Of a stretch of 64,000 nt of DNA, positions 102 through 28,500 are shown in pieces; positions within the stretch are counted from its first letter, which is position 1; each line of letters opens with the position of its first letter. Below the pieces are notes generated by a model, which did no database searches, was not told the origin of the DNA, and saw only the letters and a list, made by a program, of their open reading frames with translations. The position numbers and the translations under genes are program-made. The stretch is from Phoronis australis (taxonomy: Eukaryota; Animalia; Phoronida): contig NMRA01000157.1 in the NCBI GenBank assembly GCA_002633005.1, positions 62,001 through 126,000 on the forward strand, in the 5' to 3' direction.

Positions 102-13418
<13,317 letters not shown>

Positions 13419-15997: not shown

Positions 15998-18387
15998 ACA
16001 ATTTCGTAACAACTCTCCATCCTGGGGGAATTAAAGTCAAATTTACAACAGAGGTCAGTTAAGACAGATAAGTTGACATATCGAAAAATAAAGACTATTC
16101 ACAAACAATCATTTCTCTCCTATCAGTGAAATAAATTTCAATCATAACAACAGGGTCTATGAACAAAGACAAAATTTTCTGAATGCATGTACCAACTGAA
16201 AACCATCATTTACAAGTCAACGCAGCATTTAAACATTTTTCAGTGTCTGGAATTTGTTTCTGTTAAAGAATATTCTATCCATAACCTGAAGAGTTGAAAT
16301 AACTGAGATGATAAGTATGATGTTGAATGCTCACAAATACCAAAATCTACAGTCGGCAACCACTTAAGTTTCAGACAAAATCTGGCATTCATTTAACAAC
16401 ACGTTGTTATAACATTTAATATATATTATTAAAAACACTGATTAATGCCAAAACCACAGGTTCAATAAGTAACAAAAAATTATCAACCATTAAATATTCA
16501 AAAAATACATAACAATATAATAAAATAATTGCAATCTCAACTACCATGTAATTTTGAATCGGACATTTGATCTCGACGAATTAAATTATGTGAATAAAAG
16601 TTAGAAAACAGCCTAACAAACAGAAGTAAATGGAGTGTAAAAATATTAAACTACTTTCAAAAAGGTACATCATCAATAATTTTAGTTCAGACTTAACAGA
16701 TGGACAAGCAAACAGATGCACACCAGAAGATCTATTTGTAAATAAAACTTCCGTTAGGAGGAAAGGTATTCTAGGATGCTTTGTGAGCATTGACTGGGAC
16801 ACACTTCAACCAAACCGAAAAATGCTGTTGGTTCATCCAAAATGAATTTGCCCAGTATCCAGTCCATTTATAAGCTAGCATATATTGCCTTTTAAGGAGA
16901 TGGAACATTTCCATTAAAGTTTCATAATTCTATTTTTGCTGTCTCACTAAAAACTAATTTCATTAATATTTGATATGAAATAAGCTGAAAATCATTTAGT
17001 ACTTTGCCCAAAACATTACAATCAATATTGAAAAGTGAGAGACTGTTTTTGATTTTATTGTGCAAAAACTCTCTTACCAGGTGGGGACCTCTTGTGATAA
17101 GAGTGGGTACTAAGAAAGAAAACAAGGTTCACTTTGTAATTACAATTACGAAAAGGGTTTAGAAAACGAGAAAAGTTGCCAAATATACACATACAAGCAA
17201 TGTTATTAGTATAAATGAATACAAAAAGCAATCTTAAACAATCCTATAATGACGAGATTCTTAGACAGCAGCTGGACAATGCCTCGACAAAACGAGAACA
17301 ACAGGAGCGTTTTGCAGAAAAGGAAGGAGATGAAAAAATATCGGTTACTACTAAGTATGCATTCAGGCTTGACGAAGACAAAACTACTGGATGACAGTGG
17401 AAACTTTCCTATGCACAAGTCAATCACAGCTCAAAGAGGACTTCATCTGAAGACAACTTATTCTGCTTCCACTTTGATTTAGTAAGTGGTGTCGACATAA
17501 CTGCTATTTACACCACAAATGTCGACACTGAACAGCCGCCATAGACTGAATTGACACGGCGCCACTACGTGTGTAAACTGAAGATGACACATCAGTGTCA
17601 ACTTAGTCACCAGTTTCTGAGGTAGAGCAACTTGCCACCGGCCATCTTGTTCAGCATTAACCATAGATCTTAACATAACTATGGCAAGACGTAAGCGTTA
17701 CCGATTGTTGACTTCCTTCGCGTTTTAGTTCTCTGTAACTTACGTCCTCAACAACCCCTTCAAATGTAATCAAAAAAACTTGCTTAATTTTCTCTTTTTT
17801 GATTGCGACTTGCACTATTTGTAACCCTGAGCATGCCCACTCCATCTTCTTGGCTACAACCTGCGCTATGTTCTCGTTTACGAGTAGTGTGTGTAAACCA
17901 CGGCTAGACACCGATCATCTAGCGCCATCTAGCGCCAGTGTCAGTTAACACCTGTTTAAACCTCCCACGAAGCCTACTTAAATTACGACTAAATCAACAT
18001 GATTATAGCAAAAGTAAACCAAATTTAGGGCGATATAACATCCTTTGTATTCATATATTAGTAGAGAAAATTGGGAATGATGACTCGCGGTATTAAATAA
18101 AGCTCTCAAAATGTATTACAGATCAACACAAGCACTATGCTAGGTTTTTTGAGGTTTTTATTTCTAAAACACAGTGTACTCACTCAGTGCTACATTTTAC
18201 TGTAAAAAATAAGAAACCTTTTTACTTCACTGTAAATAAGATTTTAATGAGATACCAAACACTGTCTTTGGAGGGCCACTGTGCCATCACAAACCAAACA
18301 TTTTCACCCCAATATGAAACTAGCCAATGAAACGCTTAAAGATTTTAATTAAAAGCCCATGAAACTTCAATATTCTTAAGAAAACAA

Positions 18388-18957: not shown

Positions 18958-19464
18958 AACCATTACTTCTGCGTTAAACAATCACCCCTTTTACTGTCAC
19001 TCAAAAAATACATCAATCAAACACTTTGAATGTTGAAGACTAGCCAAACATTTGGATAAGATCCGTGCTTAACCCAACCAGTATCAGGAGCAATTACAAC
19101 ACTGAAATAACCCCTTTCACATCACAATTCATCGGCAAATAATCACACACTCAATAGATCATACATGATTTACACCAGCACAAAACCGTCTAAAAACTGT
19201 CCTTATCAAGAGACAGCCTTTTCAAAAGTATCAACTCCTGTTGCTCTTCCATGCAAACACATTTTTCTCTCACTGAAAATAGCACCAAACACTAACATAC
19301 ATTGCAAACTGAAATTTCACACTTCTTTACATTTTGTTCTTTGTGAAACTTAAGCCACTCCAATGCGAAAAATTGCCTTAGCCGGAATTCGCTTCATACA
19401 TTCTCTTCTTTGCAACGCACGTTTGTGTTAAAAAATTCCATTCCTTGATGGGTATCAGGTGCCG

Positions 19465-19570
19465 CTATGTCAACTGGTTCGTTCCGGTCGTTGGGTTCAT
19501 GTACTCTTCGTGGTCCGTGACTTCAGCTGGCTGGGTAGTTGTTGTGCCACACTGGCCTGCTCTCTGAGAG
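19465..19570 (-). CDS. CAMTA: CAMTA terminal coding exon (SQRAGQCG...TNQLT*)
   Basis: cttctctgctcttgtag acceptor; TAG at 19467-19465; followed by a long U-rich 3' UTR. Confidence 0.75.
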
Positions 19571-22500
19571 CTACAAGAGCAGAGAAGCAGACGACATCAA
19601 TGAAAATGGAGAGGAAGTAGAGGGACATTGCTCATAGCACAGTTGCTCATAACACAACTCCATTCCACACTATGAGAAACGTGTCAATCAAATGCATTTT
19701 TGGATTAAAAAGGGTTAGAAATCGTTAAAAAGTTGGGATCAACATGGAAGCAGGTAAATACTCCTTGTGGTAGACGTGCGCAATGTGTTACAGAGTTTCA
19801 GTTGAAATTTCTGAAGGCAATAGAGGGAAAGAAACTGATGTCATGTGAACTTAAACTATTTAAACATATCTGAGAGCGGCTGGATAAAAATAATCGAAAT
19901 CCATAAAGTGAAACCATCTAATACAATTATTGCCTTTAAGTCAGACTAAGTTTAACATTTTCATAATGAGCAAATTAAAGTCATTTGTGACTCACAACTG
20001 CGTGATTTAAAAAGAATCCTGGAAAAATGCGGGGAGGGAAAGTTGAAATGACGCAAACGTAAATTTGAGGATACGGTGAACTTTGCTACCAGTCACTTTG
20101 GTTGTATAACTGCCATGTGATCAGGCAAACTCCGCCTACCTCTTGCTCAACACATGCATACAGAGAGAGACAGAGGGGAAAGCTGATCAAACGAGGGTTT
20201 GTAACAATTACTGTGAGGTAAGTGCAAGAACCTTCCACACTCATCGGTTAGCAATTCTCAATCATAACTGATGCGGTGCAATGGTTCCAGAATTTCCGAA
20301 CGCGGAGTCAAACCAAACTGGCAACTTAACGGCTCATTCTGCACTATTTCAGTACAAATTTGTAAGTTTATTTGAAGCATGGCTTACAATTGGTCGATTT
20401 TTGGTAGAGTTTCGAGTACACAGATTAGACACCAGGCGCTGATCTCATAAAACAGACGAATAATATGTAAAGCTAACTTTTTAAGACATACACGTTTAAG
20501 TTTAGATTTTCCCCGTGTTTCAGCTCAAGAGATATTTAAAAGATTGACAGTCGGGCTAAGCCTTCTTAATAAAAATGCACGAGACCTAAAGAGTTGGAAA
20601 AATATATACGAAATAAATTTATGCTCAGATGAAATGGGAACCGGGTTTACGAATCATACATAAATTTAATCCACAACTACTGGCATGATCTATACAAAAA
20701 AATATAAATTATAATGGTCAACAAAATTTTGAGCTGAAAGTGGCATATGCCAATGGTCATGCAAACTTCCTCATCTATCATTGCTAACGAACCGACACAC
20801 AAAATTTTAGATATCAAATCCCCATGGCCCCCAGTTTGCTCCCTGAAGCCTCCAGGCTTTAATCAACATCCTGGATTTTCATTGAGTCCAATGGTGGTCA
20901 ATATTCACTCCTTTACCCAGAAAGTTTAAGTCACGTTACGTTAAGTTTTCACGAATCAATGCAATTTGTAGAGGTAAAAAGACCATTTTCACAAGATAAA
21001 ACTTAATTTTGAATTAATTCAAGACAGAAGAAAAATCTTGAAGTGAACCAGGCAGATGGTTGAAATGCTGATTTTCTCATGCAGGACTGAACTGACAGCA
21101 GAGAGTTGTACATAGACACCTGTGGTTTAAAAATCCTTCGTTATGCTACATAAAACACACAAAAACAAATTATACTTTCAAGAGGAAAGAATGACGCTGG
21201 AATAACACAAATAGGATGACTATGTCGTGACATTGCTGCTTACAATCAAAACAAAAATTCGCACTTAGAAATAGGCAAGATGACAGAGTACAGTAGGTTT
21301 CACAACATAACAATCAAATATAGAGAAATGTTCACCACAACATAGATAATTTTTCAGTCACATAAAACGAATACACAAGAAATGTTGTTTTCTCACAGTA
21401 CAAGCCAATGACAGTTTCCAGCATTGCTCAGCTAACAGTCTCAGTGCAGACACTGGACTTTTTCAAGCATATCTCAATGCAATGATCAATGACAATACAG
21501 AGCCCTCTGTAAGCAACAGTGGCGAATCACAGCTGCTTCATCTGTTCACAGGGAAAAACTGAGAAGTGTGTGACAATGTGTGCTGTACTGTTTGTGCGCA
21601 CCAAAGAAGTAATTGCAATGTAAAAAATGTCAGATACGACACTTAAAGAAACAGACAACCAACGCAGCAAAAGACTGCAGGCAACTCACCCGATAGGCAC
21701 TGTACATGTCCCATAACAGACTGGCAAATGGTTAGGAAACAAACACCATTATATTAGTTATGGCTGGCAGGAAAATCCGAAGTACTACACTATGCTACAC
21801 CCAGTAAATATAAAAGCTCGCATGCAAAATATTACAATTGATTTCACCCGCATCCTACAACAACGATCCCACATTAAATGGACAATCCATGGTCACATGC
21901 AGGCAAATTGTTTGTCCAAACTTCAAACTCCTTAAAATACATCTCACTGAATAACATTTAGAAGTGGTTCTGTAAATAGCCTAAAACTAAACAAACAGCA
22001 TGTTACAAATTTTAGGCAACTTTTTCCGATACTTGTACAGTATAAAGTGGTTTTCTAAACAAAACTTAATAATTTCTGACAACACAATAAAATCTATAAG
22101 AAACGATCCCCTCAACATCACTCTGAATTTTTTAATGTCTCCACTACCTGTCACCCATTACATAAATGATGAAATTTTAGACCAGGGCCCGGTCTCCAAT
22201 CTTTTTACTCGAAATGGAACTCGAAATTAGGTTTGGCATTTTCTACTCTACTTTTGAGCGAACTCAAGATAAGTGTCTATTATTCTATGCTCGAGTACAC
22301 AATAACTTACGTAGATAATTTATTGTCCTTAGTTCACGGTTTGCAAACCCAATATTAAAGCAATAAGTTCGAGTTTGAACTCTAAATTTCGAGTTTTTAC
22401 TCGAGTTTGTAGCACGAATGTAAGGGTCTTCAAGGGCAAACTTGAACTAGAAACTCCTATGCATAAACTATAATGCATTCGAGCACAGTCTGATAACCAA

Positions 22501-25500
22501 TTATCTTAAGTTCGCACAAAAGGAGCAGAGAAATTGCCAAAAATAGTTTCGAGTTCGTTTCGAGTACAAAGATTACAGACCAGGCCCAGGTGTTTAGCAG
22601 CTAGAGTAAGTGTGTTGTCACTGCTACTTGCAAGCCAATTTACAAGATCCCATAACCAGTGTAATAGCCCAAGAACACTCAAAAAATGAAACGCGTTCAC
22701 AGGAAACAAAGATGCGTCTTGGAGAAAGTTGTGCATGTGAACGCGACCCACAGAATATTTCTCAATATCAGCCATTTACCTGAATGGACACATTTCAACT
22801 GAAAGGGTAAGTAGCAACAAAAATGAATACTTCTAACTGTTGAAAGCATGCATTTCTTAACAGATATTTTTCTGAAAAATACTTCCGCAAAGGACAACCC
22901 CAAGAAATAAAAAGTACAAAAAATTACCACCATACCACATTTTGTGTACCGTCTAAACCAATACAGTCAATGGGACCATTGTTACTCATAAGTAACAAGT
23001 TGTGTGCAAATTTGGACAACAAGACCAACATGGCGTGTTGATATCTGCCCAGAATGCATTGCATATGGTATGTTTCTAAGGTTGCTTATCAGCTTTGTGA
23101 AAGCTACAAGGAGACAACGTTTGACCAGGGGTCAGACCGAATGGTCAGAACTGACAAAAGTGTTGGTACCTCACCTTTTAAAACTAACATCAAATCAAAA
23201 AGTTTAAAATATGAACAGTTTTCAACATTTGCAACGAAGAAATAAAACATACCACAAAAACTAAGGGACACAGCGCTGGACATCCAACAATTAGCAGGTC
23301 TAGTGCTTCTTTTTTAAAAAACAATCATAATGTCTGGCAAGAACAAAGACAGACACAAAACACCACAACCGGCAAAACTGGTAGCTGCCATCATCTTCAA
23401 AATGGAGGAGCCACTAGGTGGTGCTGCACCAGTCGAATCAGCCCAAAAATCCATTGGTACCTGCGCGTTACACTAACTTACATCTTTGAAAGTTTCATTA
23501 AAATCATCCGAAAGCATTCTTTCCACAAAAGTCCCTTATTGAGGCAAAAATGGCCACTAGGGTTGCAGTGGTTGAATTCGATGGAAAATTAAATAGTGAC
23601 GGCACACTGCCATCACATACCTCTGTAAAATCTGTCGAATAGTTTTTTAGATAACATCCGGAAATGCTCTTAAACCTAAAAAGTACTGAAAAAGTCCCTT
23701 AGTTGTCAAGACCAAAACGGCCACTAGGGTGTGCTGCTGTGGTCAAATCTGCCCGAAAACAGGAGTGGTGCTGGCACATTGTTGTCACATATATATGTCT
23801 GTATCATGTTTCATTGAAATCCATGAGTTCTCTAGATATCATCCAGAAAAACCTCATCCATCAGCCCCTAGGAGAAAGTGAAGATTGAAAAGTGACATAC
23901 TCCGTCTTAAGCCGCATTTACACGGGAGACAACTCTCATGGAGCAACTAACACGGAACAGGTGATCAGGAGCAAGTGTGTGTAACTTTAAACATGACTGA
24001 CACGCAGCAAGTTGACACCATGGCGGCCATTTTTGACACCGGTTCGAGAGATAAAGTAAGTTGAATTCGATCAGTTGCTCCAGTTTCAACTCCACGTCTA
24101 AACACAACTGGGGCGATTGTGCAATAGCGTATATACGGGCGATCCACAGGCATTTCACATGGTTTGGATGTTGGCTGTTGCTTATGCAAGCATACGCTGA
24201 CAGTCTACGTGTAAATGACTCATACCGATCCAGTTTTGATCCAATGTCGTGAAAATACGACTTAACTGGAGCAAGTTGCGCCATGACAACTCGCACCGTG
24301 ACAACTGATCCCAGTGCAAAAACGGCTATAATAGTGATGACCGACACTCTTGTGCCAAATTTCATTAAGATCTTATCAGGAGTTTTTAGATATCGAGCAG
24401 ACACACGGACAGGATGACGACAATATGCAACCACATAAATTATAATGTGGGAGCACAAAATGTAATCTTGTGTGAACAGAAAACAAGAAAATGTCGAGCA
24501 AACAAATGTTAAAGTCACGTCACGGCAACCTAGTGTACAAACTGACGGTGAAGCCGGGGGCATTAACAGAATGTTGTCTTGCAATCACGGCAGAGTAAAT
24601 CAAATCACATGTTTTTCCCGATGCTACAGAACACATTACACACTGGATTTGATTGAATAAAACATCGATACACACAATCTAAATTACTTGAAGCTGCATG
24701 TCGTCCTATTGGCTGGCTGAAAACAAATTAAGCTTTTTTCTCTCATAAAATCCGTCTCATATGTTACAGGCAATGCAGACAAGCACCATTTTTGAATTAT
24801 CTTGTAATTTTAGGAGACCTAACCCCAAAAAACTCTGAAGAGCTTTTTAGAATCAGGCTGATGGTCTCGAAGTCGTTGATGGTCACCTTTGTTCCAGCTA
24901 AACAATACGAAAATGCAGCTTCAAAGATCACCTGCTAAAATATAAGTCCATAAACTTTGTCTAATGAACTCAAAAGAAATGTATAAAGTTCACGCACAAA
25001 AACAAAAAAACCTTGATAATAACATGAATTATGTGTCAACCTATAGAGAACTCCAGTACCTTGGTATTAATCCGATGACTGTAGACGAAAAACAAACTCA
25101 GGACATTTGAAAAACTTAATTTCTTCAATCTAGTACACAGAAGTATGTCGCAGGAAGGAAATTTCGCTGCATTTTTCAAGAGAATGGTGCTTGACCAAAT
25201 GAAGACATTCTGACCCTCGCAGACACCACTACTTGACATCAATTCTAAATGATAACATTTTGCAGCTTTGTTTCCAACTTGACGCTATATTTCTGGGAAA
25301 CCACAATTCATTTTCCAGTCTCGGTAACTGAGCAAATAACTTTAAGTTTTTATAAACCAATGTGTTAATGTTTACGCTAAATAATCCATCCATGAACAAA
25401 CTCAGGACGCCGAATCGGAGAATTTTTAAGGTCTACCAAATTTTAGTACTCTTACACACAGATATTTCAGTGACTGTACTTCGAAAAATATTCTTTATCA

Positions 25501-28500
25501 AGTAAGGTAAGGTGCACTGTAAATTTTCGGGTGCTAAATCCATTCAACTAATGGTGACTATCCCTAAGAGTTTAAACCAAGGAAATAGTAGCCAAAACAC
25601 AACGAATCAAATCAAATAATTTGATATCTCACAATGCGATACATAAATCACAAATTCCATGCACTGCCTGACAACCAATTGGTTACAAGTCAGTCTCTTA
25701 AACAACACTATGCTTCTACAAGAATCGATACTGTTCCTAAATCCTGGACTAAAAGCACTACCAATAATTTAGTGTATACGCAACGACCGTGTCAATTGCA
25801 CGAATCACAACGAATCACCTTTTGGTACACGCCCACCCAGTGTCAATCAATGAGTTAACCAATCACTTACCTCGCACCAGCCACGGACTTGTTCCTTTCT
25901 TGATTGCGTTTCCTCTGATAATGAGTCCTACAAAAAATCACAGTTGCGAGTACAGTACAAGCCAAAAGTATTCAGACAAAATGATGCCCGGGAAACCACG
26001 TCATGGCGGCTGAGCGGAAGTCAAATTCCTCAACAGAGTAGTCTCCCCTGATGACCAAAAATGAAGGGAAATTAACAGGAAAGTTAGTGAGGTAGCTAAG
26101 CCTTTATGTCCAGTAATTTTTGCTGATAGCAGGATTAGCCGTCATAACAGGAAAACTGTATTTGGCAATTGCTTTTGTCTTGCATTCAAAGATTTAAACG
26201 AAAATTATGATGAAATGAAACGTAAACAAGATACTAGTAGATTTCCACCAAGACAGAAAAACATGTTTATTTATAACTTGAGAAATATTACGGGAAATCA
26301 ATTTTGAGATTTTTCCTTTCTATAAGTCCAGAATCAGAGTTGGTGCTTTTTCAAGAGTGGAAATTAGAGTAAATGTCACTCAGTGCTAGAGTACATATCA
26401 CTCAATGTGAAGAAGAAAGTACTAACAGTGAACCACTGTGGACTGTAATCAATGACGTAACAGGTCAACTCTACCTGGACCTCTGAGCATACTCCATGAT
26501 GCTACAGGTCAACTCAACCTTAACTTCTGGGCATACTCTATGATGCTACAGGTCAACTCAACCTAAACTTCTGGGAATACTCTATGATGCTACAAGTCAA
26601 CTCTACCTGAAGCACTAGTCATACCCTATGATTTTACAGGTCAACTCTACTTGAACCTCTGGGTACACTCTGTGATGCCAGAGTTCAACTCTACCTGAAT
26701 CTCTGCTGTATGATGACTGCAGCATTTCTACTCCGCTTGAATCGCTCATGTTCCTTGTATGTTCGATACTGATTCTGAATAATTCTGGCAGCATCCTGAC
26801 TCTTTTTGAACCGCTTCTGGGCGTAATATGTGCGGAACTGGCTCTGAATCGTCACAGCTGCTTCACTCATTCTTTTATAGTATGCATACTACAAACAAAA
26901 TAATCCCAGTAACATTGGTTTTTGCATTAAATTAGCAATCATTTTTCTAGCTTGAGATAGCTTTCAGTCTCAGTAACCATAGTTCTGTGAATTTTAATCA
27001 ATGATATAGGCTGAGCTTGAAAATTTTTGGCCAGCTTGAGTAATATTGGGCAACCCTGAATAACATTGGGCAAAGTTGGATGGTACTGATTAAAACCACA
27101 GAGTAATAGCTGCAGAATTGCAAAATTAATTGGCTGTTCGCTATTAATGCACCAACACCTACATGCAAGTTTCCAGCTTTCAACCAGTTACGATTGCAAC
27201 AAATTTGTACTAATTTCTTTGCGACTGACTATTGGATAAATGCAAACGATATAATGACTCATTTGCTTGACTAATGAAACTTTTCCATGACTTATTAATT
27301 TCTTCGGTTTTATGATACGAGGTTTTCAGGCATGAAAACTCGTTTTGTTACGTCCCAGATTTTCCATCGTTCCCAGATTTCCCATCGAGGAAACAACGAA
27401 AAATAGTTGTCAGCAACGCTGTTATAAGCTTGATCACTTTGCTTGCACGCACTAAAAACACAATAAAAACTCCCACCGTTGGCCAAGAGGACTTCTCAAC
27501 ACAAATGCGTCGATACCTGCTTGTAGCGTCGGTAGTAGCTTTGAATTAAGATGGCCGCTCTCACTTCCCGCTCTTTGTGCATCTTATTCTGCAGTTTAGT
27601 CTTGTACTGGCGAAACGCATCCTGGATGATTTTGGCTGCTTCAAACAGGTTACGCTGTTCTTGGTCTACGCAGGCAAACAGAAGAAAAAAAACCCCGAAC
27701 ATTGATGTTTTCAAATAAATTCTATCTACCGGCTAAGATCAAACAGTTTAAACTCATCAACCATTTACTAGAAACATTCCTATAACATAACAAGAAGTGG
27801 CAAGAAAACGGGAATAATTTCATGAGCGCATCTCACATCATAGGTTCATAAAAATGATCACAGGAAAATAGAACACGTATGAAAATAATGGACTCTGTCA
27901 GGTGGTAATGGCTTTCTGCCAGGATCTCCAGAGATCAGACGCTTCAAAACACAACTAACTTTTAACATATGTTTGACTTTAAGCTGCTATATATTCAAGA
28001 CACTTAAATGCTCAAAATGTATAACATTTTAAAAACCTAATAGCAAGATGTAGACTCCACGTAAAACGGCAACTGTTGGTAGTCCAGGAAATAGCAAAGA
28101 CTGTTCAAATGTTTATGGCGTCTTTATTGTCACACAGGAACTTAAGCCCAGAAAATGCGAGAACCGTATACCTGGAAAACAGTCAAACCTGAACACTCCA
28201 CCGTACCTTCAAGTATTGAAACCGATCCAATTTCTATTTTGATTATCAAATGTTACAATTACGTGAGGCACCAACTTACCTGACAATGTGAGCAGAGAGA
28301 AGTCTTGCTCGAGGAACATGGCGGGGGCGTTGAAGTACTCCCTGAAGTCTTCCTTGGTGGGCGGCGGCGAGTCCAGTGCAAAACTGTATGGGCTGGCTAA
28401 ACAGGGTGAGGCGGGGCTTTGGCACGAAGTGGGTGTACCCAGGTCAGGGTATCTAGAACAGACGCGGGCGGTTGAGGCGGTAGTAGTGAGTAAAAGCAGT

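What the first reader, a model, noticed from the sequence alone, without database searches (positions are those of the whole stretch)
19465..25927. Chain of frame-shifting microexons acting as a combinatorial C-terminal switch for CAMTA
Seen: the last intron (phase 2) holds four AG...GT-bounded segments in transcript order: 11 nt (24897-24887), 19 nt (22798-22780), 31 nt (21720-21690) and 26 nt (21145-21120). None is a multiple of 3, yet their phases chain (2>1>2>0>2). The pairs sum to 30 and 57, and full inclusion reads with no stop: ...AGA-SWNKVEMCPFSLLWDMYSAYRHNEGFLNH-SSQRAG.... Unpaired inclusion either stops at once (19 alone gives AGT TGA; 26 alone gives SITKDF*) or moves the last exon into another frame. 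Inference: a regulated, probably neural, splicing switch that rewrites the tail just after the calmodulin-binding IQ array. Caveat: the 11- and 26-nt donors (gtgacc, gtgtct) are weak, and short AG..GT pairs also occur by chance.
Basis: partly seen in the sequence, partly recalled or inferred. Interest (0 to 1): 0.82.

Follow-up and report, generated by a model that had tools for sequence, protein, structure and literature searches.

The report
Two tiny exons swap CAMTA's tail
The last intron of this calmodulin-binding transcription factor gene holds a 19-base exon that one RNA assembly splices in on its own, predicted to cut off the protein's tail, and a 31-base segment that is likely the same tail-swapping nerve-cell exon known from fly and mouse; the proposed four-exon pairing code found no support.

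Summary
All four AG..GT segments sit at the stated coordinates and the frame arithmetic is right, but they are not equally real. The 19-nt exon has the best splice sites of 1,065 candidates. A contig from run X1 carries it alone, which stops translation one residue after the junction. The 31-nt segment matches a W-containing peptide found at this junction in CAMTA isoforms of 23 mollusc, nemertean, arthropod and echinoderm taxa (rank 1 of 6,268). It corresponds to the fly 28-nt eMIC-dependent Camta exon and probably the mouse 31-nt neural Camta1 exon (PMC8797185 tables). No joint using it was listed in three raw-read runs, which show only skipping (16 reads). The 26-nt segment is undecided; the 11-nt one is no better than chance. 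Best reading: a three-way tail switch (long, swapped, absent) by singly used exons, not frame-restoring pairs. None of 18 relatives' alternative isoforms returns to the skip frame. The scan reported the 31-nt exon before in another annelid (e1-9576177); the RNA-backed 19-nt stop exon is the addition here.

The parts
26695..26888 (-). CAMTA exon with IQ calmodulin-binding motifs
   Evidence: Pfam IQ E 6.9e-08; RNA joints to both neighbours
25871..25927 (-). 57-nt penultimate constitutive exon, basic, ends in phase 2
   Evidence: RNA joints 25926-26694 and 19570-25871
19571..25870 (-). Last coding intron, 6,300 nt against 427-979 nt for the 14 other CAMTA introns measured; 7 sense TGCATG
24887..24897 (-). 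11-nt AG..GT segment; probably not an exon
   Evidence: rank 28 of 1,065, about 17 as good expected by chance; absent from the X1 contig
22780..22798 (-). 19-nt cassette exon; used alone it puts a stop in the first full codon and removes the tail
   Evidence: 19 letters between the flanking exons in the X1 contig, laid in bin 22645-22865; only 19-nt AG..GT segment in that bin; top splice score
21690..21720 (-). 31-nt frame-shifting cassette exon (LLWDMYSAYR), likely orthologue of the bilaterian CAMTA tail-switch exon
   Evidence: rank 1 of 6,268 ten-mers against 23 peptides from relatives; UGC at -6, branch-point-like YTRAY at -15 and -37; no RNA joint listed
21120..21145 (-). 26-nt AG..GT segment; possible exon, undecided
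   Evidence: rank 4 of 1,065; only 1 of 8 downstream candidates that restores the frame after the 31-nt exon; TGCATG 37 nt downstream; no RNA joint listed
19465..19570 (-). Coding part of the last exon, read in two frames: skip frame ends at 19465, the 31-nt frame at 19523
   Evidence: RNA coverage and direct joint

Best explanation
The last intron of this CAMTA gene likely works as a three-way tail switch run by two cassette exons that are each used alone: skipping gives a 35-residue tail, the 19-nt exon is predicted to end the protein one residue after the junction, and the 31-nt exon would shift the last exon into a second frame and give a different 26-residue tail. Shown: the skip form in three RNA runs, the 19-alone form in a contig of a fourth, and the translations. 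Inferred: that the 31-nt exon is spliced in this species, that it is neural and under eMIC (Srrm234) or Rbfox control as in fly and rodent, that both included forms escape nonsense-mediated decay (the 19-nt stop lies 15 nt before the last junction, the 31-nt frame stops in the last exon), and that the difference between X1 and X2-X4 reflects tissue or stage. The likely effect is to change what sits directly behind the calmodulin-binding IQ array (acidic disordered tail, short W-containing hydrophobic peptide, or nothing) while leaving all folded domains intact. The 11-nt segment is probably noise; the 26-nt segment may be a rare partner of the 31-nt exon (about 1 in 3).
For: X1 contig: record 308-548 lies on 19330-19570, 568-626 on 25871-25929, 19 letters between; X1 depth in bin 22645-22865 is 2.11 = 24.5 x 19/221, and zero in the bins of the other three segments. 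The same arithmetic reproduces the two flanking bins, and 22798-22780 is the only 19-nt AG..GT segment in the bin. Direct joint in X2-X4. In 13 of 15 skip/alternative pairs from relatives a W lies 2-3 residues past the point of divergence. The window's 31-nt peptide ranks 1 of 6,268 even with a profile from arthropods and echinoderms only; Lineus reads DLWDMMHTVR. The fly exon DmeEX0003698 is 28 nt, eMIC-dependent, pan-neuronal and 'changes the C-term region'; read in phase 2 it gives IWDGNLAIV. Mouse Camta1 MmuEX0009018 is 31 nt and classed Neural. None of 18 alternative isoforms ends in the skip-frame C-terminus.
Against: No joint or loose end for the 31-nt exon was listed in X2-X4 (threshold 3 reads a run; only 2-10 direct reads a run, 18-19% of each run read), and none in X1 contigs. 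The 19-nt exon rests on one contig from one run whose RNA status is a guess, and the tool did not print its 19 letters. Tissues are unknown, so regulation is not shown; an allele or population difference could also separate X1 from X2-X4. The eMIC-type features are not distinctive here: 8 of 16 constitutive acceptors have UGC within 25 nt and their AG-free zones span 15-78 nt. TGCATG enrichment is borderline (7 seen, about 3 expected, P 0.025-0.065). No vertebrate CAMTA1 protein was retrieved. The 23 W peptides were picked by hand from taxa that have one. The splice model was trained on only 16 acceptors and 16 donors.
Confidence: 0.68

Rival explanations
1. One reading: all four segments are exons, used as frame-restoring pairs (11+19, 31+26) that insert 10, 19 or 29 residues, with unpaired use giving truncated or shifted tails.
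For: Full inclusion is open. The 26-nt segment ranks 4 of 1,065 and is the only 1 of 8 downstream candidates that restores the frame. Relatives do stack short exons here: Mercenaria has A, B, A+B, W and skip forms; Lineus and Argopecten add 13 and 8 residues next to the W exon.
Against: The 19-nt exon is seen without the 11-nt one. The 11-nt segment is at chance level. About a quarter of all AG..GT segments restore the frame. The extra inserts in relatives keep the frame (8, 9 or 13 codons), and none of 18 alternative isoforms returns to the skip tail.
Confidence: 0.08
2. The 19-nt exon is a cryptic or allele-specific exon with no regulated role, and the 31-nt segment is a relic no longer spliced in this species; the gene makes one main tail.
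For: Only the direct joint is listed in three raw-read runs. X1 differs from the window at 9 of 548 UTR bases, so it is another individual or population. A high-copy repeat lies about 180 nt downstream of the 19-nt exon.
Against: The 19-nt sites are the best in the intron in the window's own DNA, and the X1 contig runs unbroken through the exon at depth 24.5. The 31-nt segment keeps peptide, phase, length and both splice sites, which a relic would be expected to lose.
Confidence: 0.14
3. The 19-nt exon is a poison exon that lowers CAMTA output by nonsense-mediated decay rather than making a tail-less protein.
For: It puts a stop in the first full codon; with the 31- and 26-nt segments downstream the stop would lie 72 nt before the last junction.
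Against: Used alone the stop is 15 nt before the last junction, inside the usual 50-55-nt escape zone (rule recalled). The form was abundant enough to be the assembled path in X1, and only 34 residues are lost.
Confidence: 0.1

Closest known systems
Drosophila Camta 28-nt microexon (VastDB DmeEX0003698 = ME672; PMC8797185 supplementary tables, PMC8042270)
   Same: Non-triplet exon behind the IQ region, phase-2 entry, [IL]WD at its start, changes the C-terminus.
   Different: 28 against 31 nt. Head inclusion and eMIC dependence were shown in fly; neither is shown here. No 19-nt stop exon for Camta appeared among the 12 table rows seen.
Mouse Camta1 31-nt neural exon (VastDB MmuEX0009018); rat Camta1 exon responsive to RBFox1 (PMC12713644)
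   Same: Same length. The rat primers read as the last IQ-like exon and as a last exon open in two frames, so the position appears equivalent.
   Different: Its peptide could not be compared, as no CAMTA1 protein was retrieved. The mouse exon is classed Neural, not eMIC-dependent, in those tables.
Non-triplet alternative splicing giving alternative C-termini or dual-coding exons (PMC13247117; e.g. C. elegans tnt-3 28-nt microexon)
   Same: A frame-shifting microexon near the 3' end picks the reading frame of the following exon, with decay not expected.
   Different: Only 45 coding bases are read in two frames here, under that paper's 60-nt threshold, and a second exon adds a tail-less form.
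Annotated mollusc, nemertean and brachiopod CAMTA isoforms (e.g. Mercenaria P0090/P0524-P0527, Lineus P0081/P0185/P0186)
   Same: Several short exons in the same intron, with skip, W-peptide and short-tail products.
   Different: Their extra inserts keep the frame. Their short-tail forms may come from intron read-through or alternative last exons; homology to the 19-nt exon was not testable.

Membership tests
CAMTA transcription factors | CG-1 DNA-binding domain | tested here: met
   PF03859 on two exons, E 4.5e-17 and 1.7e-11
CAMTA transcription factors | TIG domain and ankyrin repeats | tested here: inconclusive
   Single exons: ankyrin hits below cut-off, no TIG hit; tblastn matches of 48-73% to the same region of CAMTA proteins
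CAMTA transcription factors | C-terminal IQ motifs | tested here: met
   PF00612 above cut-off on two exons
Bilaterian CAMTA tail-switch exon (fly DmeEX0003698 type) | Lies in the last coding intron, enters in phase 2, length 1+3n | tested here: met
Bilaterian CAMTA tail-switch exon (fly DmeEX0003698 type) | Hydrophobic-W-acidic/polar peptide at its start | tested here: met
   rank 1 of 6,268 ten-mers and 1 of 319 after an AG
Bilaterian CAMTA tail-switch exon (fly DmeEX0003698 type) | Spliced into mRNA in this species | tested here: inconclusive
   No joint listed in 4 runs of unknown tissue at 2-10 junction reads a run
eMIC/SRRM4-dependent neural microexons | UGC near the 3' site, CUAAY-type branch point, long AG-free zone (PMC8797185) | tested here: inconclusive
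   31-nt exon: UGC -6, YTRAY -15/-37, zone 41 nt; but 8 of 16 constitutive acceptors also have UGC and similar zones. 19-nt: UGC -18, no YTRAY
eMIC/SRRM4-dependent neural microexons | Neuron-specific inclusion lost without the eMIC domain | not testable with these tools
   Run tissues not given; no knock-down data
Poison (decay-triggering) exons | Stop more than about 50 nt before the last junction (rule recalled) | tested here: not met
   19-nt alone: 15 nt
Dual-coding non-triplet isoforms (PMC13247117) | At least 60 nt read in two frames | tested here: not met
   45 coding nt plus stop of the last exon; fits the alternative C-terminal class better
   19-nt seen without 11-nt; 31+26 not seen at all

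The most novel reading that the evidence does not exclude
The last CAMTA intron is a hotspot kept since the bilaterian ancestor: one W-peptide exon shared by flies, molluscs, echinoderms and probably mammals, onto which each lineage adds its own microexons. In this animal a 19-nt stop exon and a 26-nt frame-restoring exon would give cell types four distinct tails (long, absent, swapped, long with a 19-residue insert) and so tune calcium-calmodulin control of transcription by splicing alone.
Probability: 0.25. Interest if true: 0.65.

Novelty: new variant of a known kind. Interest (0 to 1): 0.42.

Why it matters
Neural microexon programmes of flies and mammals are reported to share only four exons at the same position, and Camta is not among the four named (PMC8797185). 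A frame-shifting CAMTA exon with a recognisable peptide in molluscs, a nemertean, arthropods and echinoderms points to a very old regulated tail switch in a gene tied to neuronal calmodulin levels (PMC8428840, search listing only). The 19-nt exon adds an RNA-backed tail-less form, a natural null for asking what the tail does. The finding is otherwise within known biology, and the surprising part of the original claim, a paired frame code, did not hold up.

Tried and rejected
Run search: no RNA holder listed by index; three raw-read runs came by species label. First lay at 90% likeness was swamped by repeats at about 22180-22600 and 25950-26080; repeated at 98% on a narrower stretch. No whole genome is held for this window, so no paralogue or second-haplotype check and no genome-wide splice model. 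The representative search with the IQ exon returned mostly multi-IQ proteins and gene-prediction fragments, with no useful tails. The search for vertebrate CAMTA1 with a bird CAMTA2 region listed only CAMTA2-type tails among the best 120 of 1,629. No protein of this species appeared among 18 hits. Other high-scoring segments (23 nt at 20018, 19 nt at 25078) have no listed RNA joint and were set aside. Homology of the 19-nt exon to short-tail isoforms of molluscs was considered and not claimed: plain read-through of the intron gives an equally short product here. The Camta1 microexon of PMC12868881 could not be assigned to the 21- or 31-nt exon (main-text passages and one supplementary file; its data tables were not seen). 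A 225-codon open frame inside the intron has no Pfam hit. Paper searches for a description of this exon's cross-phylum conservation or its tail function found none; subscription journals and bioRxiv supplements are not covered. No look-alike DNA in other scanned genomes.
Full report
Observation. Translating all 16 combinations confirms the arithmetic: skipping gives a 35-residue tail, full inclusion is open, the 19-nt segment alone stops one residue after the junction, and the 31-nt segment alone moves the last exon into a second frame with a 26-residue tail. The gene is CAMTA: CG-1 and IQ pass Pfam's cut-offs and tblastn lays seven CAMTA proteins along exons from about 39,700 to 26,700. The closest hits to the IQ exon are annelid (84% Dimorphilus, 81% Owenia), so the animal is probably an annelid (inference). 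The last intron is 6,300 nt; the 14 other introns measured are 427-979 nt.

Chance. A splice-site model from 16 acceptors and 16 donors of this gene ranks the segments 1 (19 nt), 4 (26 nt), 5 (31 nt) and 28 (11 nt) among 1,065 AG..GT pairs of 6-51 nt. Scaled from 8,455 bases of control introns, sites this good are expected 0, 2.2, 3.7 and 17 times per 6.3 kb. The model is small and rough. The phase chain is easy to build: 128 of 537 upstream segments restore the frame with the 19-nt exon and 67 of 279 downstream segments with the 31-nt exon. Of 14 upstream candidates scoring at least as well as the 11-nt segment, 6 do so; of 8 such downstream candidates only the 26-nt segment does.

RNA. Four runs of one species label were laid twice. 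Raw-read runs X2-X4, of which 18-19% was read, show the direct 25871-19570 joint (10, 2, 4 reads at 98% likeness) and no other joint in that stretch at the threshold of 3 reads a run. The 928-nt contig of X1 does not use the direct joint: 19 letters lie between the two exons, X1's depth in bin 22645-22865 is 2.11, equal to 24.5 x 19/221, and X1 has no depth in the bins of the 11-, 31- and 26-nt segments. The same arithmetic reproduces both flanking bins, 18 or 20 letters would give 2.00 or 2.22, and 22798-22780 is the only 19-nt AG..GT segment in the bin. So the 19-nt exon is spliced in alone in X1. This is deduced from the tables, as the letters were not printed; it is one contig, and contigs drop rare forms. 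That an unbroken contig marks the main form in that sample is inferred from how such assemblies are built. Tissues are not given.

Relatives. Isoforms of named CAMTA proteins diverge at the equivalent junction. In 13 of 15 skip/alternative pairs a W lies 2-3 residues past the divergence; the exceptions are Dimorphilus (a similar insert without W) and a pair from two genera. Twenty-three hand-picked W peptides (8 molluscs, 1 nemertean, 12 arthropods, 2 echinoderms) were used as a profile. The window's 31-nt peptide LLWDMYSAYR ranks 1 of 6,268 ten-mers in the intron's three sense frames, also without Lineus (DLWDMMHTVR) and with arthropods and echinoderms only, where the margin is thin over all ten-mers (9.2 against 9.0) but wide among the 319 that follow an AG (9.2 against 3.1). 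No such isoform was among the members listed for Owenia, Lingula, Dreissena, Mya, Littorina, Patella, Lytechinus, Holothuria, Cloeon, Watersipora, Saccostrea, bird CAMTA2 or two corals; at most 15 members a cluster are listed, so this is not absence. None of 18 alternative isoforms from 14 taxa ends like its skip partner: the conserved use of this exon is to leave the frame. Stacked short exons do occur here in relatives (Mercenaria A, B, A+B; Lineus +13; Argopecten +8; Lingula +9 residues), but those inserts keep the frame. No sequence match to the 11-, 19- or 26-nt products was seen by eye.

Literature. PMC8042270 (one passage, supplementary rows): Drosophila Camta ME672, 28 nt, included more in heads; read in phase 2 it gives IWDGNLAIV. 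PMC8797185 (passages, supplementary rows): the same exon, DmeEX0003698, is eMIC-dependent, pan-neuronal and 'changes the C-term region'; mouse Camta1 has a 31-nt exon classed Neural, MmuEX0009018; only four fly-mouse eMIC exons share a position and Camta is not one of them. PMC12713644 (passages): a rat Camta1 exon was validated as an RBFox1-responsive event; its primers translate to a match for the last IQ-like exon and to a last exon open in two frames, one resembling the CAMTA2 tail, so the position appears equivalent (inference). PMC12868881 (passages): a Camta1 microexon affects neuronal gene expression, length not determined. PMC13247117 (abstract, one section) defines the classes of non-triplet splicing. 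PMC8015719 (passages) lists a nuclear localisation signal after the IQ motifs of CAMTA1; whether the tail switch touches it was not tested. PMC5314398 and bioRxiv 10.1101/2024.11.28.625692 (passages) were not informative.

Mechanism. Shown: skip form, 19-alone form, translations. Inferred: the 31-nt exon is included in neurons through eMIC and perhaps Rbfox. It has UGC at -6 and branch-point-like motifs at -15 and -37, and TGCATG occurs 7 times on the sense strand (2 antisense; 2 in 9,155 bases of other introns), five of them within 1 kb of the 19-, 31- or 26-nt segments. These signals are modest: P 0.025-0.065 for TGCATG, and UGC is as common at constitutive acceptors. Both included forms should escape decay. 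The outcome is three tails behind an unchanged IQ array: acidic and Thr-rich (net charge -3), W-containing (net 0), or none. What the tails do (localisation, stability, partner or calmodulin binding) is untested.

Verdict. Two of the four segments are well supported, one by RNA and one by conservation; one is undecided and one is noise. The combinatorial frame-restoring code is not supported. This is a new variant of a known neural CAMTA splicing event, with a 19-nt stop exon not found in the sources searched. Interest 0.42.

Noticed in passing
window 19571-25870: Sense-strand reads cover the last intron at about a quarter of 3' UTR depth in X2-X4 (mean 2.3/9.7, 1.4/5.3, 1.9/7.6). Read-through stops right after the junction, so retention would give the same tail-less protein as the 19-nt exon.
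   Followed up: partly
window 26460-26705: A 44-nt tandem repeat (5.6 copies) starts at the donor of the IQ exon and repeats donor-like sequence into the intron; RNA used only the first donor among the joints listed.
   Followed up: partly
window 22180-22600 and 25950-26080: High-copy transcribed repeats: one between the 19- and 31-nt exons, one about 25 nt upstream of the 57-nt exon's acceptor.
   Followed up: no
window 20018-19996 and 25078-25060 (minus strand): Two further AG..GT segments (23 and 19 nt) rank 2 and 3 of 1,065 by splice score, above the 26- and 31-nt segments; no RNA joint listed.
   Followed up: partly
window 4171-7264 (+ strand): Exons of an aldehyde dehydrogenase family gene (PF00171) running towards the CAMTA 3' end; candidate CAMTA poly(A) signals at 18349, 18248 and 18162.
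   Followed up: no
window 23907-24584 (minus strand): A 225-codon stop-free frame inside the last intron with no Pfam hit; probably repeat-derived or chance.
   Followed up: partly
proteins P0092, P0187-P0189 (Lingula); P0090, P0524-P0527 (Mercenaria): Annotated isoforms show real combinatorial use of several short exons in this same intron in other lophotrochozoans; a better place than this window to look for a microexon chain.
   Followed up: partly
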